A stretch of DNA of 64,000 bases from Candidatus Fimenecus sp. (GTDB lineage: Bacteria; Bacillota; Clostridia; Oscillospirales; Acutalibacteraceae): positions 623-64,622 of the forward strand of contig JAZQMC010000001.1 of NCBI GenBank assembly GCA_045543095.1. Reading direction: 5' to 3'. The notes under the pieces are model-generated. The model did not search any database. It was not told the origin of the DNA and worked only from the letters and a program-made list of their open reading frames with translations. Below are positions 3,954-12,780 of this stretch, one piece after another (position 1 is the first letter of the stretch; each line of letters begins with the position of its first letter). The translations under genes were made by a program, and so were the position numbers.

Positions 3954-5021
3954 CTATTCGGGAATATAAGTGTATGTTTTGAAGCCGTCTGAATAGCGTT
4001 GCTCACCGTCGGGCATAACCCACATAGCCTCAACATTATCCATTGATTTTATTAGTTCCAAGCCCTCTTCGTAATCCATAAGGAACAAAGCGGTGGACAT
4101 TGCATCGCCAAGTCCCGAATCATCGGTAAGAACCGAAACTGAACGGTATTTTGTGCCGGGCATTAAAGTTTGCGGGTCAATGATATGATGATAATTTTCG
4201 CCGTTAACCACATAAAAACGCTGATAAGTTCCACTTGTTACAAGGCTTTCACCCTGCAGATGCAAGAACTCAATATAGGGCTTTTCTTCATTTGCGGTAT
4301 CGGGATTTTCAATGCCCACATTCCAAGGCTTTTCGCCTGTATCCCCTATTGTGCGTACATTTCCGCCAAGATTCAGAAGATAACCTGTAATTCCCTTTTC
4401 TTCAAGGTATTCTGCAATTTTTTCTGCAGCATAGCCCTTGGCAACTGCACCAACATCGAGTGTCATTTCAGGGTCAGCAAGATAAACGGTGTTATTTTCG
4501 TCATCAATTATGAGATTATTTATATCTGTGTGCTGTGATGCCTCTTGTAATTTTTCCATTGGGGGTAATTGGGCATTTGACGGGTCATCAAGCCCCTCAT
4601 TACGATAAATGTGCCATATTTTAAGCACGCTACCCATTGCGATATTTACACTACCGTTGGTTTTTACATACATTTCCTTGGCAAAGGTAAGCATATCGAT
4701 TATTTTCTCGTCAACAGTTACTTCGGTGTGCTTGCCGTCAACAAGGTCATTGATTGTTACAAGGTTGTTAAGCCCATCATAACGATTATAAATAGTAAAA
4801 AGACGGTGGTACTCCAAAAGCAATGCTTTAATTTCTTCACAAACTGCTTTGAAATCTTCTTCGGTTTCTTCATAGCCGATTATTGTAGTGGCAGTGTCGA
4901 AATAATCGAAGTAATATTCACTGAATTTATTAAGTTTTGGTTTTTTATCGCAACCTGCAAGACTGAAAGTCTGTACAAGCAATAATGAAACTATTAAAAA
5001 CAAAGAAATTGCTTTTTTCAT
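3954..5021 (-). CDS. apbE: FAD:protein FMN transferase (ApbE family) lipoprotein
   Basis: 355 aa with lipobox LAGC and ApbE-like motifs (DVGAVAKGYA, NLGGNVR, SVVTSGTYQR-like). Confidence 0.88.
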   Translation of the reverse strand: MKKAISLFLIVSLLLVQTFSLAGCDKKPKLNKFSEYYFDYFDTATTIIGYEETEEDFKAVCEEIKALLLEYHRLFTIYNRYDGLNNLVTINDLVDGKHTEVTVDEKIIDMLTFAKEMYVKTNGSVNIAMGSVLKIWHIYRNEGLDDPSNAQLPPMEKLQEASQHTDINNLIIDDENNTVYLADPEMTLDVGAVAKGYAAEKIAEYLEEKGITGYLLNLGGNVRTIGDTGEKPWNVGIENPDTANEEKPYIEFLHLQGESLVTSGTYQRFYVVNGENYHHIIDPQTLMPGTKYRSVSVLTDDSGLGDAMSTALFLMDYEEGLELIKSMDNVEAMWVMPDGEQRYSDGFKTYTYIPE

Positions 5022-5113
5022 ATCAACACGTCCGTTACAAAGGGTCGTCGACCCCTACTATAATAAAAAGGGATGCTGTTTTCACAACATCCCCGAATTT
5101 TTAATTAACCGAA

Positions 5114-6163
5114 TTATGCTTTTGCAGCAGCTTCAGCAGCTTTTACCATATCACTTACTGCCATTGTGCAGCCTGCTGTCTGAAGGTCAGCTGAGCCGTA
5201 GCCGTTTTCTGCAACAAGAGCTACGATTTCAGCAGCTGTCTTGCCAACGAGAGCCTTGTCAAATTCAGCAGCCTGTGCATACCACTCAAGAACCTTGCCG
5301 TCGCCGTTGAGGTCCATACCGTAATTGAGAGCAGCAGCCATACCGTAAGCATCGCCCTGTTCAAGCTTTGACTTAACTTCTGCCTTTGTATCAACAGTAG
5401 CTTCGCCCTTAGCGTTGAATGTAATCTTACCCTGTGTGCAGTCTGTCTTAGAAACTACAACTTTACCGTCTGCATCTGTAACAGCAGCAACAATTGTTGT
5501 GTCAACCTGATTAAGACCATCTGCTTCTTCAGTAGCATCTTTATTATCGTGAGATGCTGATGTTACAAGAGCAACCTTGAGTTTGTTTTCAGCAGTAGCT
5601 GTTGATTCAGCAGCACTGTTAACTGCCTTTTCAAGAGCTGCAACGAAATCTGTTACGTGGATTGTGCAACCTGCTGTTGCAAGGTCACCTGTTGTGTAAC
5701 CGTCTTCTGTCATATAAGCCTTAACTTCTGCAAGTGTCTTGCCCTTTGCTGTGTTCATAAATGCGTCAGCCTGTTCGTTCCATTCAAGAACTTTACCGTC
5801 GCCGTTCTTATCCTGACTTGCACCGAACTCAGCCATGTGATAGTCTGTGCCCTTGTCATACTTTGTTCTGAAGTCTTCAACTGCAACAACCTTGCCCTCT
5901 GAAGTCCATGTGGGCTTAATCTGAGCAGTATCGAGGTCGATAGCAACGATTTTGCCGTCCTTGTCAAGAAGAACTGCAACTGCTGTTGTGTTGAATTCAC
6001 CTTCACCGTTTGTTTCGCCGTCAGCGTTCTTTGCAGCACCATAGTTTGCTACAACGCCAAGACCGAATTTAAGAGCTTCTGCTTCTTTTTTGCCGCAACC
6101 TGCAAGAGCAACAACTGCGAAGAGCATTACTACTGCAAGAGCTATGCTGAGAATCTTTTTCAT
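5114..6163 (-). CDS. lipoprotein with two tandem FMN_bind-like repeats (candidate ApbE substrate)
   Basis: Signal peptide plus lipobox LAGC (Cys23). Two repeats of about 165 aa each end in GDGKVLEW...GKT.AE...DL.TAGCT(I/M).V.D.V.A.E.A, which resembles the FMN_bind C-terminal segment. Confidence 0.7.
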   Translation of the reverse strand: MKKILSIALAVVMLFAVVALAGCGKKEAEALKFGLGVVANYGAAKNADGETNGEGEFNTTAVAVLLDKDGKIVAIDLDTAQIKPTWTSEGKVVAVEDFRTKYDKGTDYHMAEFGASQDKNGDGKVLEWNEQADAFMNTAKGKTLAEVKAYMTEDGYTTGDLATAGCTIHVTDFVAALEKAVNSAAESTATAENKLKVALVTSASHDNKDATEEADGLNQVDTTIVAAVTDADGKVVVSKTDCTQGKITFNAKGEATVDTKAEVKSKLEQGDAYGMAAALNYGMDLNGDGKVLEWYAQAAEFDKALVGKTAAEIVALVAENGYGSADLQTAGCTMAVSDMVKAAEAAAKA

Positions 6164-6241
6164 AGTGAATTTCTCCTTTTAATAATTCTTTTTCATAAAA
6201 TGGGGTTATATGCCCACAAATTTACAAATAAATTATTGCAT

Positions 6242-6280
6242 AAAAAAGCCCATTTGTCAACACAACGTTGATAAATAGGC
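6242..6280 (-). terminator. intrinsic terminator after the Gx-transporter gene
   Basis: 14-bp stem GCCTATTTATCAAC/GTTGACAAATGGGC followed by a T-run on the minus strand. Confidence 0.6.
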
Positions 6281-6304
6281 ATACAAAAAACTATTACATT
6301 TTTG

Positions 6305-6814
6305 TTACATTTTAACCTTGTCAAGACGTTTAAGAAGCAATGAACCCGCAATCCCTATAAACACACCTGCAATTGTGCCCGTGATTGCAAGAACAATCAT
6401 ATAATAGCCCAATTGAGTTGTATCAAACAGTGCGATTGCAACTAAAATCTGCCCCAAATTATGACTTATTCCGCCCACAATACTTACACCAACTGTTGAA
6501 AAGAGGTTGAGTTTTTTGCAGATTGTCATAAGAACAAGGCTTAAAGATGCACCCACAACGCTGTAAATGAGCATCATTCCGCTTCCGAAAAGCAAAAAAG
6601 AGGAAAAAAGAACTCTGATAAGAGAAACTATTGCCGCCTCTTTCACGCCTAACTTATAAAGCAGAATAATAATTATTATATTCGGAAGTCCCATCTTTAT
6701 GCCGGGCACAGCCGTCCAGATTGGCGGAAGCTGTGACTCAACATAGGACAAAACCAACGCTAAAGCAGTAAAAACACCCAAAAACGCAAGTTTTGTTACT
6801 TGATTCTTTTTCAT
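6305..6814 (-). CDS. Gx transporter family membrane protein (Hpre_diP_synt_I-like)
   Basis: 169 aa with about 5 TM segments. The family is recognised by sequence style and by its usual pairing with a NusG-II protein. Confidence 0.7.
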   Translation of the reverse strand: MKKNQVTKLAFLGVFTALALVLSYVESQLPPIWTAVPGIKMGLPNIIIIILLYKLGVKEAAIVSLIRVLFSSFLLFGSGMMLIYSVVGASLSLVLMTICKKLNLFSTVGVSIVGGISHNLGQILVAIALFDTTQLGYYMIVLAITGTIAGVFIGIAGSLLLKRLDKVKM

Positions 6815-6823
6815 AATAATCGC

Positions 6824-7240
6824 CTATACTACAACATCAATCTCGCTATCTGTATTCTCTGCCACAATTTCGATAACAACCTTATGTGGCAAACACACAA
6901 TAGTTTCGCCCACATACTGTGCGGCACGGGTTTCGGCACATATACCGTCGGGGCAATTAGCCTCTCTTATATAAGCCTTGCCGTCTTTTATTGTGAGAAC
7001 ATTAATATGCTCATTATTTTCACCTGTGGTGATTGTTACCTCTGTATTGACAGAAAGCGGATAAACTGCGGTCTGTTCACCGTTTATATTTACGGCTACC
7101 GATGAGCCTACCTCTTTGTTAAGCCCGAAAAACAAAAGTCCTGCCGCCGCTATAACCATTATAACGGCGACAAGGATAATATCATTACGGATTTTACGCT
7201 TTTTGTCAGAAGTAACATTCTTTACTTCTTTATTACTCAT
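6824..7240 (-). CDS. NusG domain II-containing membrane-anchored protein
   Basis: 138 aa with an N-terminal TM segment and the motif CPDGIC...G..IVCLPHKVVIEI. Its start overlaps the rnfB stop by 4 nt (ATGA). Confidence 0.75.
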   Translation of the reverse strand: MSNKEVKNVTSDKKRKIRNDIILVAVIMVIAAAGLLFFGLNKEVGSSVAVNINGEQTAVYPLSVNTEVTITTGENNEHINVLTIKDGKAYIREANCPDGICAETRAAQYVGETIVCLPHKVVIEIVAENTDSEIDVVV

Positions 7241-8043
7241 ATTTTTCCGTTGACCATATCAACAATCTTAAGACGACCTGTAGGACAAACTGCCGCACAC
7301 TCGCCACAGTCATTACACTTATCATAATCAATAACCGCAAGATTATCAACAACTTTGATTGCATCGTGCTGACAAGTTTTTTCACACTTTTTACAGCCAA
7401 TACAAGCATTCATACAATTTTTGCGTGCAACTGCTCCCTTTTCTTTGTTACTGCAAGCTACAGCAACTACAACATCCTCACCAACAAGAGAAATTACACC
7501 CTTTGGACAAGTTTTGACACATTTTCCGCAAGCAATACATTCTCTTGGGTCGATATGAGCAAGGTCATCAAAGACATAAATTGCACCAACAGGACATACA
7601 GCTGCACAGTCACCGCAACCGATACAGCCGTATTTGCACTGTGAAGGGCCGCCATAAAGCATTGACGCTGCTTCACAAGACTGAATTCCGTCATAAATCA
7701 CATTATAATTTACCGCAGAGCAGTCACCACTACAGTTAACATAGGCTACCTTAGGCTTGTCAACCTTAACCGTAACGCCGAGAATTTCTGAAAGCTGACC
7801 GGCAACATCGGGACCGCCGGGAATACAAAGATTTGCCTCTGCCTTGCCCTCTGCCACTGCCTCGGCATAAGCGTCACAACCTGCGTAACCGCAAGCACCA
7901 CAGTTAGCACCGGGAAGGCACTCACGAACTGCTTTTACTTTTTCATTTTCGGGAACTGCAAAGAAATGAGAAGCCAATGCAAGCATAATGCCTGCAATAA
8001 GACCAACCGCTGCCACTACAAGAAGAGCTGTTAAAATTTCCAT
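7237..8043 (-). CDS. rnfB: Rnf complex subunit B (Fe-S)
   Basis: 268 aa with an N-terminal TM segment and several CxxCxxCxxxCP ferredoxin motifs. Confidence 0.9.
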   Translation of the reverse strand: MEILTALLVVAAVGLIAGIMLALASHFFAVPENEKVKAVRECLPGANCGACGYAGCDAYAEAVAEGKAEANLCIPGGPDVAGQLSEILGVTVKVDKPKVAYVNCSGDCSAVNYNVIYDGIQSCEAASMLYGGPSQCKYGCIGCGDCAAVCPVGAIYVFDDLAHIDPRECIACGKCVKTCPKGVISLVGEDVVVAVACSNKEKGAVARKNCMNACIGCKKCEKTCQHDAIKVVDNLAVIDYDKCNDCGECAAVCPTGRLKIVDMVNGKI

Positions 8044-8058
8044 AATTCACACTCCTCC

Positions 8059-8673
8059 TTATGCAAGTAAGTTTTCAACGATTCCGGCAAAGCCGAAGAA
8101 TGCCATTGAAATAAACGATGCAGCTACAAGTGTTACAGGAAGTCCTTTGAAACTCTCAGGAACATCACTCTCTTCAATGCGTGAACGCATACCTGAGAAG
8201 AGCACCATTGCAAGAAGGAATCCAAGACCACAACCGAGTGAACTTACAATTGAGAAAAGGAACGCGTTAGGTTCTGTTACACCGTAGTCTGTAATATTGT
8301 TGATTGTTACGCCGAGAACTGCACAGTTTGTTGTGATAAGCGGAAGGTAAACACCAAGGCTCTTATGAAGTGCAGGGATATATTTCTTTAAGAAAATTTC
8401 AATAAACTGAACAAGTGCCGCAATAACAAGAATGAATACGATAGTCTGCATATAGCCCATATTAAGAGGCTCAAGAATGTAGGCTTGAATCGGCCATGTT
8501 ACTGCAGTTGCAACAAGCATAACAAAGATAACTGAAAGGCCCATACCAACTGACTGATTAACTTTCTTTGAAACGCCAAGGAATGGGCAGATACCTAAGA
8601 ATCTGCTTAAAACATAGTTGTCAACAAGTACAGAGGACATAATAATGATGATTAAGGTTTTTACCATTTCCAT
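8059..8673 (-). CDS. rnfA: Rnf complex subunit A
   Basis: 204 aa polytopic protein, RnfA/NqrE-like (LPLITTNCAVLG). Confidence 0.92.
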   Translation of the reverse strand: MEMVKTLIIIIMSSVLVDNYVLSRFLGICPFLGVSKKVNQSVGMGLSVIFVMLVATAVTWPIQAYILEPLNMGYMQTIVFILVIAALVQFIEIFLKKYIPALHKSLGVYLPLITTNCAVLGVTINNITDYGVTEPNAFLFSIVSSLGCGLGFLLAMVLFSGMRSRIEESDVPESFKGLPVTLVAASFISMAFFGFAGIVENLLA

Positions 8674-9372
8674 TTATTTGCCCTCCTTTTCTGTTGAACA
8701 TCCACCGTGACAGCTTGATGCTGACGGACATCCTGCACAAGAGAATTCTTTTTTCTTGATGAGCTTACCCTTTGTAATCTTATTAACTATGGCAATGAGA
8801 AGACCATAAACCATAAGACCGCCGGGAGCTTTTGCAAGAACGCTGATTGTTAAACCGTTTTCTACAAGGAACGGAATTTCGTTGCCTGCAAATGAACCTG
8901 CACCGATAACTTCACGGATTGTTGACATTGCGAGAAGTGCAATTGTGAAGCCGATACCCATTCCTATACCATCAAGTGCTGACTTGCCGATTGAGTTTTT
9001 ACCAGCAAACATTTCTGCACGACCTAAGATAATACAGTTAACAGTAATGAGTGCCAAGTAAACGCCCAAGGTTTCGTATAAATCAGGAATAAACGCTTGA
9101 ATAAGCATTTGAACTATTGTAACGAAGCCTGCAATAACAACTATGTAGCAAGGAATTCGTACTGTTTCGGGAATGAATTTGCGAAGTGCTGAAATAACAA
9201 TATTTGAGCAGATTAAAACTGCCATTGTTGCAAGGCCCATACCGAATGCCCCGTCAACCGTTGTTGTGGTTGCAAGTGTGGGGCAAGTACCGAGAATAAG
9301 AACAAAAACGGGATTTTCACGGAGAAGACCTTTTAAGAGAATTGACATATTGTTTTCTTTACTCATAATCAA
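8674..9372 (-). CDS. rnfE: Rnf complex subunit E
   Basis: 232 aa, RnfE/NqrD-like (LALITVNCIILGRAE). Cys-rich C-terminal tail. Confidence 0.92.
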   Translation of the reverse strand: MIMSKENNMSILLKGLLRENPVFVLILGTCPTLATTTTVDGAFGMGLATMAVLICSNIVISALRKFIPETVRIPCYIVVIAGFVTIVQMLIQAFIPDLYETLGVYLALITVNCIILGRAEMFAGKNSIGKSALDGIGMGIGFTIALLAMSTIREVIGAGSFAGNEIPFLVENGLTISVLAKAPGGLMVYGLLIAIVNKITKGKLIKKKEFSCAGCPSASSCHGGCSTEKEGK

Positions 9373-10550
9373 GCCACTCCTTCCATAATTTTAACTGCTT
9401 CAATCGCTTTACCAACACCGGTCTTATAACCATTTGTTGTGATTGTAGCACCGCTGATTGCGTCGATGTCTTTATAGTTTGTTTCGTCCTTACCGTTGAA
9501 CTGTGAATAGAAGTCTTTATTTGCACAAGCAGAACCGATGTTGTCAGTTTCGCTCTGTGCTGTTGTTACACAGTTGATTATTTTTGCATCTGCAGTAAGA
9601 GCAATCTTAATGTAGATATATTCGCCTGATGGATTATAGTAATGGTCACCGTTGATACCGAAACCTGCTGCGTGGATTTCAAGAACATAATTGCCACTCT
9701 TGGTCTTATATGCTTTATCAACGTGAGATGGCATATCAGCATATTTTGTAAGGTCGATTTCTTCCATTGAAGACTCCGCCATAATCTTTGCTGCAGACTC
9801 AACATTAGCCTTAACCTCGTCTGCAACCTCTGAAACTACTGTACCGTTAGCATCAACACCAACAAACACAGCTTCTTCACCGGAACCAACTACATAAACT
9901 GAACCTGCACCGTTATCTGCAGTATAAACTGCTGAAACTCCCTCAAGAACTTCACAGATAAATACTTCTGTGAACTTGTCGCCTGCAGGAAGTGCAGTTG
10001 CAAGATTGTCTGCAAGAATTTCTTCTTCTGTACGAATATCAACACTTGCACCACCGAGAATTGCAGCAGAATTGATAGCATCCTTAACTGCATCTCTGTA
10101 TGCACCTGTTGTCATTGTTGCACCTGAAACAGTTGCAAGTGCTTCAATAGTTTCGGCTGTTGCACCCTTTGTTGTTTCACCAAAGGTTTTTTCTACGCCG
10201 AGAGTTTCGTTACTTGAAAGGCAAACTGCACCTGTTACCGTACCGCTTGCGTCAACACCGCACATGATAATCATATCGGGGCCGTAACCTGTTGCGGTAA
10301 CCTTGAACACGCCACCGCCGTTTGAAGCTGAATATGCTTCAAGAACTGATGCGGGGAAAGTGTATTGGGTCATATCAACTGCAGTGAAGTCGCCACCCTC
10401 AGGCATTACTACGAGTAATGCTTCGTTAGCGGCTGCACCTGCATTTTTTTCAATAATGGGAGCTGTGACTGAGTTTGTTACCGCAAGAAGTGCCGCAACA
10501 ACCGCACAGATAACTGTAAGGGAAATGATGCTCTTTAAATGTTTTTTCAT
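9369..10550 (-). CDS. rnfG: Rnf complex subunit G, double-length form with two FMN_bind domains
   Basis: 393 aa with an N-terminal TM segment. Two flavinylation motifs: VSGATMTT (aa 141-148) and ISGATITT (aa 365-372). Confidence 0.85.
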   Translation of the reverse strand: MKKHLKSIISLTVICAVVAALLAVTNSVTAPIIEKNAGAAANEALLVVMPEGGDFTAVDMTQYTFPASVLEAYSASNGGGVFKVTATGYGPDMIIMCGVDASGTVTGAVCLSSNETLGVEKTFGETTKGATAETIEALATVSGATMTTGAYRDAVKDAINSAAILGGASVDIRTEEEILADNLATALPAGDKFTEVFICEVLEGVSAVYTADNGAGSVYVVGSGEEAVFVGVDANGTVVSEVADEVKANVESAAKIMAESSMEEIDLTKYADMPSHVDKAYKTKSGNYVLEIHAAGFGINGDHYYNPSGEYIYIKIALTADAKIINCVTTAQSETDNIGSACANKDFYSQFNGKDETNYKDIDAISGATITTNGYKTGVGKAIEAVKIMEGVA

Positions 10551-11473
10551 TTCTTTGCACCTCCGAACAGTTTACGGGTGCATTTGGCATCAATGAAGGG
10601 ATTTACAATATTCATAAGAAGAATTGCAAATGAAACGCCTTCAGGATATGCACCGAAGAAGCGGATAAGCACGGTAATAACACCTGCACCGATACCGAAG
10701 ATAATTTTACCCTTGGCATTTGAAGGTGATGTAACATAATCAGTTGCCATAAAGAATGCACCGATTAAAAGACCACCTGAAAGTGTCCAAGCAAGAGCCA
10801 TTTCAAAATTACCGCCCTCAAGCAAAAGAGTAAAGAGAAAGGCTGTACCGATGAATGCCACAGGAATATGCCAGCTGATTACTCTGCGAACAAGCAAGTA
10901 AATTCCGCCGATGATGAGTGCCAATGCACAAGTTTCACCGATAGCACCGCCGTTTTTACCGAGTAAAAGGTCAACAAGGTTTGGTAATACATCATTATCA
11001 AGGTCTGTAAGAGGTGTAGCACCCGAAACAGAATCCATACCTGCGGGGAAAACTGCCGATGTCATTGAACCGAAAGCCAGAAGCATAAACACACGTGCTG
11101 TGATTGCGGGGTTCACAATGTTTTTACCAAGTCCGCCAAATACACATTTTACAATAATAATAGCAAACGCAGAGCCGACTGCTGCCTGCCAAAGCGGAAT
11201 ATTTGCAGGAAGATTGAGAGCTAAAAGAAGACCTGTTACAACAGAGCTCAAATCACTTACTGTCTGTTCCTTTTTAACGATAATGTTGAAAAGGAGTTCA
11301 CACGCAACTGCTGAAATAACACAAGTTGCAACTACGAACAATGCGTTAATTCCAAAAAGCACAATACCTGCTATTGTTGCGGGAAGAAGAGCAATAATAA
11401 CATCAAGCATTATTCCCTGAGTGGTTTTCTTACCGTGAATATGAGGAGATACTGAAACATGAAGTTTTTCCAT
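10547..11473 (-). CDS. rnfD: Rnf complex subunit D
   Basis: 308 aa polytopic protein, NqrB/RnfD-like, with the SGATPL flavinylation motif. Confidence 0.93.
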   Translation of the reverse strand: MEKLHVSVSPHIHGKKTTQGIMLDVIIALLPATIAGIVLFGINALFVVATCVISAVACELLFNIIVKKEQTVSDLSSVVTGLLLALNLPANIPLWQAAVGSAFAIIIVKCVFGGLGKNIVNPAITARVFMLLAFGSMTSAVFPAGMDSVSGATPLTDLDNDVLPNLVDLLLGKNGGAIGETCALALIIGGIYLLVRRVISWHIPVAFIGTAFLFTLLLEGGNFEMALAWTLSGGLLIGAFFMATDYVTSPSNAKGKIIFGIGAGVITVLIRFFGAYPEGVSFAILLMNIVNPFIDAKCTRKLFGGAKK

Positions 11474-12780
11474 TATTTATTGCCCTCCTTTGCCTTATAT
11501 TCTTTAAGTGCACGCTTTGCAAGTTTATTTGTCTGAACAAGAGGACGATTTGCAGGACAACCGAATGAACAACATCCGCATTCCATACAAAAACCAAGGC
11601 CTGCTTTTTCAACCATTTCCATATCGCCTGTTTTATATCCCTTTACAACCGCAGGAACATTGATGCCGAACGGACAATTGTTGATACAAGCACCGCAACG
11701 GATACAAGCAGTGGTTTTAGGCATTTTTACTTCCTTTTTGTTGAAAGCGATAATCGCATTTGTCTGTTTAAGTACGGGAACCTGAAGATTAGGAACCGTA
11801 ACTCCCATCATAGGACCGCCATAAACAACTTTTTCAGGGTCACAATTAAAACCGCCGCAGAAGTCAAACACATCACTCAAAGCAGTTCCCACGGGAACAA
11901 TTACGTTCTTCGGTTCCTTTACTGCACCACCGTCAACAGTAATAATTCTCTCAACAAGTGGCATACCTGTTTTAAGATATGAACCGATAAACGCCATCGT
12001 TGATGAGTTGCACACAATACAACCTATGTCCACAGGGAGTTTGCCGGCTTCAATCTTTTTACCTGTTGTATGGTAAACAAGCACCTCTTCGCTGCCCTGA
12101 GGATATTTTGACGGAAGAATTGCAACCTTGACCTTACTGTTTTTTGACGCAATTTCGTTCATTTTTGCAATTGCCTCGGGTTTATTTTTTTCTATACCGA
12201 TGACAATTTTTGAAAAATTGAAATACTTATCAAGAGTTTCAACAGCAAGAGCAATATATTCTGCTTTTTCAATCATTGTAAGAGAGTCACTGGTTATGTA
12301 GGGTTCACATTCGGCACCGTTAATAACGAAAGTATCAACTTCCTTTTCAGTTGCAAGTTTTACATAGGTTGGAAAACCTGCACCGCCAAGACCCACTGCA
12401 CCACTTTTCTTAACTGCCTCAATTAAATCTTCCTTACTGTTGATTTCGGGAGGAGCGATAGATGAATCAGGAGTCATTGCACCGTCAGATTCAATTATAA
12501 TTGCAGGAACCTTGTTACCGTTTGATATAACAACATCCTCAATCTTTTTAATAGTTCCCGAAACACTTGAATGTACGGGAGAAGATATAAATCCATTTTG
12601 TTCAGCTATTAAAGTTCCCACATCTACATGGTCGCCAACTTTAACAACGGGAATGGCGGGCTTACCGATATGCATAACTGTGGGCAGAGTAACTGTTTTA
12701 ACATCAGTCATTCTGACAGCCGACATATTAGCCGTATTTTTTCTGTGTGGTACGTTAATACCGCGAATAGAAAAAGCCAT
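11473..12780 (-). CDS. rnfC: Rnf complex subunit C
   Basis: 435 aa with GLGGAGFPT (NADH/FMN site) and two C-terminal CxxCxxCxxxCP clusters. Confidence 0.94.
   Translation of the reverse strand: MAFSIRGINVPHRKNTANMSAVRMTDVKTVTLPTVMHIGKPAIPVVKVGDHVDVGTLIAEQNGFISSPVHSSVSGTIKKIEDVVISNGNKVPAIIIESDGAMTPDSSIAPPEINSKEDLIEAVKKSGAVGLGGAGFPTYVKLATEKEVDTFVINGAECEPYITSDSLTMIEKAEYIALAVETLDKYFNFSKIVIGIEKNKPEAIAKMNEIASKNSKVKVAILPSKYPQGSEEVLVYHTTGKKIEAGKLPVDIGCIVCNSSTMAFIGSYLKTGMPLVERIITVDGGAVKEPKNVIVPVGTALSDVFDFCGGFNCDPEKVVYGGPMMGVTVPNLQVPVLKQTNAIIAFNKKEVKMPKTTACIRCGACINNCPFGINVPAVVKGYKTGDMEMVEKAGLGFCMECGCCSFGCPANRPLVQTNKLAKRALKEYKAKEGNK

What the first reader, a model, noticed from the sequence alone, without database searches (positions are those of the whole stretch)
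3954..6163. PplA/FmnB-like pair: ApbE next to a tandem-repeat lipoprotein whose FMN_bind-like motif is non-canonical (D-L-x-T-A-G-C-T)
**Seen in the sequence:** the 349-aa lipoprotein (lipobox LAGC) is an internal duplication of about 165 aa.
- Each copy contains a DxNGDGKV Ca-loop-like segment (DKNGDGKV, DLNGDGKV).
- Each copy then has VLEW...GKT(L/A)AE(V/I), and ends in DLATAGCTIHVTDFVAALEKAV (aa 160-181) or DLQTAGCTMAVSDMVKAAEAA (aa 326-346).
- RnfG in this same window ends its domains with ATVSGATMTTGAYRDAVKDAI and DAISGATITTNGYKTGVGKAIEAV. That is the canonical Dxx(S/T)GA(T/S) site flavinylated by ApbE.
- In an ungapped alignment, the lipoprotein places Cys where the FMN-bearing Thr sits. 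With a one-residue shift, a Thr is retained (AGCT versus SGAT).

**Established:** ApbE/FmnB covalently flavinylates extracytoplasmic FMN_bind domains, and Listeria PplA is a two-FMN_bind-domain lipoprotein used for extracellular electron transfer.

**Inference:** this is a divergent, possibly differently modified, surface redox lipoprotein served by the adjacent ApbE and genetically attached to Rnf rather than to Ndh2/EetAB.
Basis: partly seen in the sequence, partly recalled or inferred. Interest (0 to 1): 0.6.

Follow-up and report, generated by a model that had tools for sequence, protein, structure and literature searches.

The report
Two-flavin surface lipoprotein beside ApbE
This gene pair encodes a membrane-anchored surface protein made of two divergent flavin-binding domains and the enzyme (ApbE) that most likely attaches FMN to it, so it is a new variant of a known extracellular electron carrier, here wired to the Rnf complex instead of a quinone pathway.

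Summary
Window 5114-6163 (-) encodes a 349-aa lipoprotein that is an internal duplication. Each half ends in D-L-x-T-A-G-C-T, and ApbE (3954-5021) follows it.

Pfam does not recognise the protein. Profile searches nevertheless tie its large unannotated family to FMN_bind, through the solved protein 2KZX. They align AGCT with SGAT, so the acceptor Thr is kept (99% Thr/Ser) and Cys only replaces the Ala before it (Cys/Val/Ala in relatives).

The family fits the "FMN-bind2" type described in 2024: about 160-aa domains, in even numbers.
- In 26 of 29 Clostridia loci a dedicated ApbE clade lies directly downstream.
- Most of these loci are Listeria-type EET loci (Ndh2, DmkA/B, EetA/B), with this protein in PplA's place.

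In this genome neither Ndh2 nor UbiA was found. The gene sits in rnfCDGEAB-eetA-eetB-X-apbE, next to a double-length RnfG. Nine further metagenome-assembled genome (MAG) loci share this layout, and one natural fusion protein joins the RnfG ectodomain to this pair.

Most likely this is an ApbE-flavinylated, PplA-like carrier, possibly fed by Rnf. Flavinylation is untested, and the fold search was inconclusive.

The scan found the same thing before on three other genomes, with the same reading. Verdict: a new variant of a known kind.

The parts
3954..5021 (-). ApbE/FmnB-type FAD:protein FMN transferase, a lipoprotein (LAGC lipobox). It is the only ApbE found in the genome.
   Evidence: Pfam ApbE 236.7 bits. 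Single ApbE in the own genome. It belongs to the clade found next to the lipoprotein family: 37-88% identity to those ApbEs, against 26-33% to other ApbEs.
5069..5094 (-). Terminator-like hairpin followed by a T-run, after the lipoprotein gene.
   Evidence: Consensus scan: 11 pairs, 5 of them GC. This is a pattern match only.
5114..6163 (-). 349-aa lipoprotein made of a tandem pair of FMN-bind2-like domains. It is the PplA-position protein.
   Evidence: ORF. Duplication. AF2 pLDDT 89.6. The family profile hits 2KZX, which Pfam assigns to FMN_bind. Lowest effective number of codons (Nc, 33.4) of the 58 ORFs in the window.
6095..6163 (-). Signal peptide with lipobox L-A-G-C (Cys23).
   Evidence: Sequence. 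Conserved in homologues.
5606..6082 (-). Domain 1 (aa 28-186).
   Evidence: Domain HMM and alignment. Single-domain model pLDDT 90.5.
5663..5686 (-). Motif 1, D160-L-A-T-A-G-C166-T167. T167 is the predicted FMN acceptor.
   Evidence: Aligned to SGAT of 2KZX and RnfG.
5117..5596 (-). Domain 2 (aa 190-349).
5165..5188 (-). Motif 2, D326-L-Q-T-A-G-C332-T333. T333 is the predicted FMN acceptor.
5789..5812 (-). DKNGDGKV loop. It is DxDxDG-like, variable and not a family feature. Its twin is at 5291-5314.
6232..6260 (-). Promoter-like site TTGACA-17-(TG)AATAAT in front of the lipoprotein gene.
   Evidence: Consensus scan, 11 of 12 matches with an extended -10. This is a pattern match only.
6305..6814 (-). 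EetB homologue (PF07456, ECF-S-like FAD export subunit).
   Evidence: Pfam 119.8 bits. Function taken from PMC9973259.
6824..7240 (-). EetA-position membrane protein (NusG_II domain).
   Evidence: Pfam 92.3 bits. Conserved next to PF07456 in related loci.
7237..12780 (-). rnfCDGEAB operon: C 11473-12780, D 10547-11473, G 9369-10550, E 8674-9372, A 8059-8673, B 7237-8043.
   Evidence: ORFs. The same order is annotated by Pfam in L066-L068.
9369..10550 (-). Double-length RnfG (393 aa) with two canonical SGAT sites. It is a candidate electron donor to the lipoprotein.
   Evidence: Two FMN_bind stretches. The doubled form is found only with the Rnf-linked lipoprotein. P0210 is a fusion of this ectodomain with the lipoprotein pair.

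Best explanation
The 349-aa protein is exported and lipid-anchored on the outer face of the membrane.

- **Architecture.** It consists of two about 160-aa domains of a divergent branch of the FMN_bind superfamily. This branch matches the "FMN-bind2" type described by Huang et al. 2024.
- **Flavin loading.** The upstream EetA/EetB homologues export FAD. The ApbE lipoprotein encoded directly downstream transfers FMN from FAD onto Thr167 and Thr333, the last residues of the two A-G-C-T motifs. AGCT is the family's version of S-G-A-T.
- **Function.** The resulting two-flavin unit works like Listeria PplA, as an extracytoplasmic electron relay.
- **Electron source.** In most Clostridia that have it, the donor is inferred to be a membrane Ndh2 with demethylmenaquinone. 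In this lineage Ndh2 and UbiA were not found, and the most likely donor is the extra FMN domain of the double-length RnfG. That would give a ferredoxin-driven, quinone-independent outlet.

**Shown:** homology, conservation of the Thr, synteny with a dedicated ApbE clade, and the two genomic contexts.

**Inferred:** covalent flavinylation, the direction of electron flow and its partners, and that Cys166 and Cys332 are simply small packed residues.
For: **1. Homology to FMN_bind.**
- A profile of 95 diverse family members hits PDB 2KZX (E 1.2e-7), aligning AgctI with SGATI.
- That 2KZX segment passes the Pfam FMN_bind threshold (26 bits against a cut-off of 22).
- hhalign against RnfG-type FMN_bind domains gives E 5.9e-5 with the same register.
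- Relatives carry SGAT or AGAT at the same site.

**2. Acceptor residue.** Thr/Ser occupies the acceptor position in 296 of 299 domains.

**3. Fit to FMN-bind2.**
- Domain counts among 150 representatives are 2 (124 proteins), 4 (10), 6 (2), 1 (12) and 3 (2).
- The domain HMM has 157 positions.
- The published FMN-bind2 exemplar has no InterPro ID.
- Only 1 of 95 family members hits Pfam FMN_bind.

**4. ApbE linkage.**
- ApbE is the next gene on the same strand in 26 of 29 class-sample loci and lies within 3.5 kb in 28 of 29.
- All 33 genomes with the family have ApbE, against 236 of 300 in the background.
- Family-adjacent ApbEs are 37-88% identical to the window ApbE. Second tandem ApbEs and the ApbEs of same-family genomes without the lipoprotein are 26-33% identical.

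**5. PplA position.** Of the 29 loci, 19 have Ndh2 with a membrane tail, 16 a polyprenyl synthase, 10 UbiA, 18 EetB and 13 EetA.

**6. Rnf context.**
- Nine further loci share rnfCDGEAB-eetA-eetB-X-apbE, all with AGCT and a 389-394-aa RnfG.
- Relatives without the lipoprotein have a 186-208-aa RnfG.
- In a sample of 301 genomes only this genome has the doubled RnfG.
- P0210 fuses the whole doubled-RnfG ectodomain (E 2e-46) to an AGCT pair (E 2e-49).

**7. Missing quinone route.** The own genome (97% complete) showed no Ndh2-TM homologue and no UbiA; the UbiA control search hit all 14 control genomes.

**8. Likely high expression.** The gene has its own promoter-like site and terminator-like hairpin and the strongest codon bias in the window.
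Against: - No experiment shows flavin on any member of this family.
- The motif departs from D-x-x-[ST]-G-A-[ST] at three places: Asp lies one residue further away, Ala replaces Ser/Thr, and Cys replaces Ala. Published mutagenesis reports that A-to-V and G-to-A changes roughly halve flavinylation (PMC12052999).
- Pfam FMN_bind does not hit the window protein.
- Foldseek found no FMN_bind structure among the top 50 PDB matches for either model. The best matches were IscU scaffolds at E 2e-3 with TM 0.37-0.46.
- Identity with the published FMN-bind2 exemplar (NTW96865.1) could not be checked by sequence.
- The Rnf-linked loci may be one clade, so the RnfG correlation may reflect a single evolutionary event.
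- No terminal acceptor was identified. The two FAD_binding_2 proteins in the genome lack signal peptides.
Confidence: 0.72

Rival explanations
1. The lipoprotein binds flavin non-covalently and acts as a hand-over or chaperone protein. It would pass exported FAD from EetB to ApbE, which then serves RnfG and RnfD. It would not itself be an ApbE substrate or an electron carrier.
For: - It always sits between eetB and apbE in the Rnf-type loci.
- Its motif is non-canonical.
- The authors of the EetB study suggest targeted FAD delivery to ApbE (PMC9973259).
- This is the only ApbE in the genome, so it must also serve Rnf.
Against: - The near-invariant Thr/Ser lies exactly at the acceptor position.
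- Some relatives have canonical SGAT.
- Fusions to several canonical flavinylated domains (P0210, P0215, P0243) look like an electron relay, not a chaperone.
- Most Rnf-bearing Clostridia manage without this protein: it was absent from the 5 other genomes of the same family searched.
Confidence: 0.1
2. In the AGCT subfamily the conserved Cys is the functional centre. Possibilities are a second covalent link to the flavin (cysteinyl-FMN), a flavin-thiol redox pair, or an IscU-like metal or Fe-S site formed between the two domains.
For: - Cys is invariant in the Rnf-linked subclade and present in 235 of 299 domains of the nearest representatives.
- The best Foldseek matches of the single domain are IscU scaffolds, with probability about 1 and E 2e-3.
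- A third Cys (C242) is conserved among close homologues.
Against: - The position is Val in all 29 EET-context loci and Val, Ala or Thr elsewhere. That pattern fits a small buried residue.
- There is only one conserved Cys per domain, too few for an Fe-S site.
- The TM-scores to IscU are low (0.37-0.46) and E is above 1e-3.
Confidence: 0.07
3. It is a non-redox surface lipoprotein, for example a ligand-binding or structural protein, that merely shares an ancient fold with FMN_bind and has lost flavin binding.
For: - No Pfam hit.
- Degenerate motif.
- No significant structural match.
Against: - The protein is tightly co-inherited with a dedicated ApbE clade across at least 22 genera.
- It sits in EET loci.
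- The Thr is conserved.
- It occurs fused to canonical FMN_bind domains.
Confidence: 0.05

Closest known systems
FMN-bind2 domain proteins (Huang, Meheust, Barquera and Light, mSystems 2024, PMC11334425; exemplar NTW96865.1)
   Same: - Domains of about 160 aa, in even numbers (2, 4 or 6).
- Extracytosolic location.
- No InterPro or Pfam assignment.
- Long beta strands and an insertion between beta3 and alpha1 relative to ordinary FMN_bind.
- Predicted to carry two flavins per pair.
   Different: - Sequence identity with the exemplar could not be tested here.
- The paper describes the type from AlphaFold models only. In the parts read here it does not report the AGCT or S-x-V-T motifs, the dedicated ApbE clade or the Rnf-linked context.
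Listeria monocytogenes PplA with FmnB, EetA and EetB (flavin-based extracellular electron transfer; Light et al. 2018, cited from memory; PMC9973259)
   Same: - A lipoprotein with two flavin-binding domains.
- Encoded beside the ApbE-type transferase and the EetA/EetB FAD-export genes.
- In 19 of 29 Clostridia loci it also lies beside a membrane-tailed Ndh2, with DmkA-like or DmkB-like genes.
   Different: - PplA is recognised by Pfam FMN_bind, and I assume it has canonical sites (from memory; not checked here). This family is not recognised and uses AGCT or S-x-V-T.
- Direct sequence homology to PplA was not tested.
- In this genome Ndh2 and UbiA were not found, and the cluster is attached to rnf.
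RnfG / NqrC FMN_bind domains (Pfam PF04205) with the D-x-x-[ST]-G-A-[ST] site
   Same: - Same order of secondary-structure elements.
- The acceptor Thr sits just before the C-terminal helix.
- Profile-profile alignment places the motifs in register.
   Different: - The domain is twice as long and forms tandem pairs.
- The Asp is shifted by one residue.
- Ala replaces Ser/Thr and Cys replaces Ala.
- There is no Ser/Thr pair after the acceptor.
Multi-flavinylated RnfG clusters (Meheust et al., eLife 2021, PMC8238504)
   Same: RnfG here has two canonical FMN sites. That paper proposes that such RnfGs open a second path to extracytosolic acceptors.
   Different: Here a specific candidate acceptor is encoded in the same cluster, and it is fused to the RnfG ectodomain in one relative (P0210).
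PDB 2KZX (131-aa uncharacterised protein, NMR structure)
   Same: It is the only solved relative by sequence (E 1.2e-7). It shares the Y-x-M ... E-W-x-E-Q-A ... motif block.
   Different: It has a single short domain with the canonical D-A-I-S-G-A-T motif.

Membership tests
Pfam FMN_bind (PF04205) | HMM match above the gathering score (22 bits). | tested here: not met
   No FMN_bind hit for the window protein at E up to 1. Only 1 of 95 family representatives hits it, at E 1.6e-4.
FMN_bind superfamily (remote homology) | Profile-level similarity to bona fide FMN_bind domains, with the acceptor motif in register. | tested here: met
   The family profile hits 2KZX at E 1.2e-7. That 2KZX segment scores 26 bits to PF04205. 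hhalign gives E 5.9e-5 and probability 65%.
FMN_bind superfamily (fold) | Predicted structure superposes on solved FMN_bind domains. | tested here: inconclusive
   Both models are confident (pLDDT 89.6 and 90.5). Foldseek gives no PDB match at E below 1e-3 and no FMN_bind entry in the top 50.
ApbE substrates (flavinylation motif) | D-x-x-[S/T]-G-A-[S/T], with the last residue as acceptor. | tested here: not met
   The sequence reads D-L-x-T-A-G-C-T. The acceptor Thr and the Gly are present. The Asp lies one residue further away, Ala replaces Ser/Thr and Cys replaces Ala.
ApbE substrates (function) | Covalent FMN on the acceptor Thr, dependent on ApbE. | not testable with these tools
   This needs co-expression and mass spectrometry.
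FMN-bind2 type (Huang et al. 2024) | Domains of about 160 aa occurring in even numbers. | tested here: met
   The domain HMM has 157 positions. Among 150 representatives the domain counts are 2 in 124 proteins, 4 in 10, 6 in 2, 1 in 12 and 3 in 2.
FMN-bind2 type (Huang et al. 2024) | Pseudo-symmetric pair formed through the extended beta-sheet faces. | not testable with these tools
   The two-domain model has pTM 0.86, but its coordinates could not be inspected.
FMN-bind2 type (Huang et al. 2024) | Sequence similarity to the exemplar NTW96865.1. | not tested
The held text of the supplement lists only the accession.
PplA-like EET lipoprotein | Lipoprotein encoded beside fmnB/apbE and eetA/eetB. 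| tested here: met
   Lipobox. The order NusG_II, PF07456, X, ApbE is seen here and in 9 further Rnf-type loci, and in EET-type loci.
PplA-like EET lipoprotein | Works with the specialised Ndh2 and demethylmenaquinone. | tested here: not met
   The own genome shows no Ndh2-TM homologue and no UbiA family member. This feature is met in 19 of 29 loci of other Clostridia.
IscU-type scaffold | Three conserved Cys ligands for an Fe-S cluster. | tested here: not met
   There is only one conserved Cys per domain, and it is Val in many relatives. Foldseek similarity is weak, with TM 0.37-0.46.
ApbE (PF02424), for the neighbouring gene | HMM match above the gathering score. | tested here: met
   236.7 bits against a cut-off of 25.6.

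The most novel reading that the evidence does not exclude
In this Acutalibacteraceae-like lineage, in which no quinone pathway genes were found, the Rnf complex has gained a second outward-facing FMN domain on RnfG. That domain passes ferredoxin-derived electrons directly to a highly expressed two-flavin surface lipoprotein. The result would be a quinone-independent extracellular electron outlet. Its non-canonical A-G-C-T acceptor site would be read only by a co-evolved ApbE clade, and the Cys next to the FMN-bearing Thr would tune or take part in the flavin chemistry.
Probability: 0.25. Interest if true: 0.7.

Novelty: new variant of a known kind. Interest (0 to 1): 0.45.

Why it matters
Flavin-based extracellular electron transfer in Gram-positive bacteria is understood mainly from Listeria PplA.

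This family has at least 4,000 protein clusters at 90% identity. All of them are annotated as hypothetical protein or lipoprotein, and the family is invisible to Pfam. It appears to fill PplA's role across Clostridia, including the cultured Ruminiclostridium cellulolyticum.

If it is flavinylated, three things follow:
- The accepted ApbE recognition motif is too narrow. AGCT and S-x-V-T sites would be missed by motif-based surveys.
- A separate ApbE clade with altered specificity exists, which could be useful for flavin-tagging.
- Some gut or rumen Oscillospirales may export electrons from Rnf without quinones.

All three points can be tested with ordinary co-expression assays.

Tried and rejected
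- **The search for related loci with the diverse alignment A2.** It failed because no stretch was conserved enough. I used A1 and the genome search instead.
- **Foldseek on the two-domain model.** Only spurious matches.
- **Foldseek on a single domain.** It gave IscU-like matches of low TM-score. I do not read these as homology.
- **The DxNGDGKV "Ca-loop".** Rejected as a family feature.
- **Extracellular fumarate-reductase-like acceptors in the own genome.** The two full-length FAD_binding_2 proteins have no signal peptide and begin with a cytoplasmic-type dinucleotide-binding motif. They look like NadB, which is my reading of the sequence.
- **Window ApbE against Listeria FmnB-type structures.** All solved ApbEs score alike, about E 1e-25 to 1e-35, so it cannot be assigned to the FmnB type.
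- **Light et al. 2018 (PMC6221200).** The paper is not held, so PplA's own motifs and homology to this family were not checked.
- **Two recent Clostridia EET papers.** Neither mentions this protein.
Full report
**Observation.**

The minus strand of window 3954-12780 reads as follows:
- rnfC (11473-12780), rnfD (10547-11473), rnfG (9369-10550), rnfE (8674-9372), rnfA (8059-8673), rnfB (7237-8043).
- A NusG_II membrane protein (6824-7240).
- A PF07456 "Hpre_diP_synt_I / Gx transporter" protein (6305-6814).
- The 349-aa ORF (5114-6163).
- ApbE (3954-5021; Pfam ApbE 236.7 bits).

The 349-aa protein has a signal peptide ending in the lipobox LAGC, aa 20-23. Its two halves are 42% identical, E 8e-28.
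- DLATAGCT at aa 160-167.
- DLQTAGCT at aa 326-333.
- DKNGDGKV and DLNGDGKV.
- VLEW in both halves.

The RnfG sites VSGATMTT and ISGATITT are also present.

The lipoprotein gene has several marks of a separate, well-expressed unit:
- A promoter-like site (6232-6260) and a terminator-like hairpin (5069-5094) of its own. Both are pattern matches only.
- The strongest codon bias of the 58 ORFs in the window, Nc 33.4.

**What the protein is.**

Pfam and NCBIfam give no hit for it. A phmmer-type search of PDB sequences with close homologues finds nothing.

The family is nevertheless large:
- At least 1,344 clusters at 90% identity around the query.
- At least 4,046 clusters around a Ruminiclostridium member.
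- 1,161 representatives at 50% identity.

All named members are called "hypothetical protein" or "lipoprotein".

I built a domain HMM of 157 positions and applied it to 150 representatives. Domain counts were 2 in 124 proteins, 4 in 10, 6 in 2, 1 in 12 and 3 in 2.

Across 299 domain copies the last motif residue is Thr in 285 and Ser in 11. The residue before it is Cys in 235, Val in 49, Ala in 6 and Thr in 5. The next one back is Gly in 215 and Ser in 59. A few relatives read SGAT or AGAT at this place.

The link to FMN_bind rests on three results:
- A profile of 95 diverse two-domain members hits one solved protein, 2KZX (E 1.2e-7). The alignment places "AgctI" against "SGATI".
- That 2KZX segment itself passes the Pfam FMN_bind threshold, 26 bits against a cut-off of 22.
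- hhalign against a small alignment of RnfG-type FMN_bind domains gives E 5.9e-5 and probability 65%, in the same register.

So the Thr of AGCT corresponds to the FMN-bearing Thr of SGAT, and the Cys replaces the Ala before it. The conserved acidic residue lies one position further upstream than in the canonical D-x-x-[ST]-G-A-[ST] motif (PMC12052999).

Several relatives carry true Pfam FMN_bind domains fused in front of the pair: P0206, P0215, P0243 and P0210.

**Structure.**

AlphaFold2 models are confident. The two-domain model has pLDDT 89.6 and pTM 0.86. The single domain has pLDDT 90.5. Each domain has three long beta strands followed by helices, and the motif lies just before the last helix.

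Foldseek against the PDB gave no match at E below 1e-3 for either model. No FMN_bind structure appeared in the top 50. The best single-domain matches were IscU scaffolds, at E 2e-3 with TM 0.37-0.46. I could not inspect the coordinates, so the fold test is inconclusive.

**Comparison with the literature.**

Huang et al. 2024 (PMC11334425) describe an "FMN-bind2" subtype:
- It is about 160 aa long.
- It comes in even numbers of domains.
- It is predicted to form pseudo-symmetric two-flavin units.
- It was found by BLAST, and the exemplar has no InterPro ID.

This description fits the family. I could not compare sequences with the exemplar.

Rivera-Lugo et al. 2023 (PMC9973259) show three relevant points:
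- EetB (PF07456) is the substrate-binding subunit of an FAD exporter that feeds ApbE/FmnB.
- eetB co-localises with eetA in 3,328 genomes.
- eetB co-localises with Rnf in 572 Clostridia genomes.

The two genes upstream of the lipoprotein are therefore EetA/EetB homologues, not unknowns.

**Genomic association.**

In a sample of 301 genomes of the same class, 33 genomes from 22 genera have the family. All 33 have ApbE, against 236 of 300 overall.

I fetched 29 solid loci. In 26 of them ApbE is the next gene downstream on the same strand. In 28 it lies within 3.5 kb.

The neighbours are those of a Listeria-type EET locus (Pfam checks; counts):

| Neighbour | Loci (of 29) |
|---|---|
| Ndh2-like NADH dehydrogenase with a C-terminal membrane tail | 19 |
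| Polyprenyl synthase | 16 |
| UbiA prenyltransferase | 10 |
| EetB | 18 |
| EetA | 13 |

One of these genomes is Ruminiclostridium cellulolyticum. In these EET-type loci the motif is S-[S/L/K]-V-T or similar, never AGCT.

The ApbE genes next to the family form their own group. They are 37-88% identical to the window ApbE across families. By contrast, the second ApbE of tandem pairs and the sole ApbE of five same-family genomes without the lipoprotein are only 26-33% identical. The lipoprotein and its ApbE are thus inherited together. This ApbE is the only one found in the window's genome, which is 97% complete, so it must also serve RnfG and RnfD.

**The Rnf context.**

Nine further loci share the order rnfCDGEAB-eetA-eetB-X-apbE. 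They come from MAGs labelled Acutalibacteraceae, Candidatus Fimenecus and Oscillospiraceae, and their lipoproteins are 50-85% identical to the window's. All have AGCT-type motifs; one domain reads AGCS. RnfG measures 389-394 aa wherever it is visible.

Two comparisons set this apart:
- Five genomes of the window's own family that lack the lipoprotein have an RnfG of 186-208 aa.
- In the class sample, only the window's genome carries the full double-length RnfG of this type.

P0210 is an 872-aa lipoprotein from the representative library. It contains one RnfG-type domain, then a collinear copy of the whole doubled-RnfG ectodomain (33% identity, E 2e-46), then an AGCT pair (37% identity, E 2e-49). 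Such a fusion argues that the RnfG extension and the lipoprotein work together.

The own genome shows no Ndh2-TM homologue and no UbiA family member. The UbiA control search hit all 14 control genomes. An ECF-T gene is present.

Méheust et al. 2021 already proposed that multi-flavinylated RnfGs open a second path to outside acceptors. What is added here is a candidate acceptor encoded in the same cluster.

**Interpretation.**

The best reading is a PplA-like extracytoplasmic electron carrier of the FMN-bind2 type. Its own ApbE would load it with FMN on Thr167 and Thr333. In this lineage it is probably fed by the extended RnfG.

The Cys is most simply a small packed residue, because Val, Ala and Thr occupy the same position elsewhere.

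Three things remain unshown: covalent flavin on any family member, the electron donor and the electron acceptor.

The non-canonical motifs (AGCT, S-x-V-T) depart from the consensus at positions where published mutations lower flavinylation. That makes the dedicated ApbE clade the interesting point to test.

**Rivals.**

- A non-covalent FAD hand-over protein.
- Cys-centred chemistry or an IscU-like site.
- A non-redox lipoprotein.

These rivals are discussed in their own sections of this report. None explains the conserved Thr, the ApbE co-inheritance and the fusions as well as the main reading does.

**Earlier notes of the scan.**

After I had reached this reading, a look-up showed that the scan had met the same lipoprotein on three other genomes. 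Two of those notes carried a follow-up, and both named FMN-bind2 as the closest known type. This report adds:
- The EET-type context with S-x-V-T motifs.
- The dedicated ApbE clade.
- The link to 2KZX.
- The correlation with the doubled RnfG.
- The P0210 fusion.
- The finding that Ndh2 and UbiA were not detected in this genome.

**Limits.**

- Light et al. 2018 was not held.

Noticed in passing
window 9369-10550 (-): RnfG is 393 aa. It consists of a complete short RnfG (aa 1 to about 170, first SGAT site) plus a C-terminal extension carrying a second FMN_bind domain. In the class sample its closest relatives match only aa 1-168 and are about 175-230 aa long.
   Followed up: partly
P0210 (872-aa protein from the representative library): A natural fusion in one lipoprotein. 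It joins an RnfG-type domain, the whole doubled-RnfG ectodomain and an AGCT-type pair. Its genomic context could not be fetched.
   Followed up: partly
L044, L045, L047, L050, L063 (Clostridia loci): Two ApbE genes lie in tandem after the lipoprotein gene, followed by eetB and a polyprenyl synthase. The first ApbE is of the family-linked clade (46-48% identity to the window ApbE) and the second is not (27-33%).
   Followed up: partly
L035 (G284, Ruminiclostridium cellulolyticum), 4025-10265: A cultured, tractable cellulolytic Clostridium carries ndh2-ubiA-eetA-eetB-X-apbE, with X annotated only as a hypothetical protein. A 67%-identical homologue is labelled R. cellobioparum, a species recently reported to perform extracellular electron transfer by an unknown route (PMC13599477).
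   Followed up: no
single-domain model of window 5606-6082 (-): The best Foldseek PDB matches are IscU/ISCU2 Fe-S scaffold proteins (probability about 1, E 2e-3, TM 0.37-0.46). No FMN_bind structures appear among them. I did not explain this.
   Followed up: no
window 13048 onward (+), and L066/L067 1-2100: An Mrp/Mbh-like antiporter cluster is transcribed divergently from rnfC. The same arrangement (MNHE, MrpF, MnhG, MbhD, MnhB upstream of rnfC) recurs in two related MAG loci.
   Followed up: no
whole genome G000: No UbiA-family prenyltransferase and no membrane-tailed Ndh2 were found in a 97%-complete genome. This suggests that the organism makes no menaquinone.
   Followed up: partly
L054-L062 (Clostridia loci): Single-domain members of the family, 166-185 aa with S-K-V-T motifs, sit in the same place in EET loci. 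They presumably act as homodimers.
   Followed up: no
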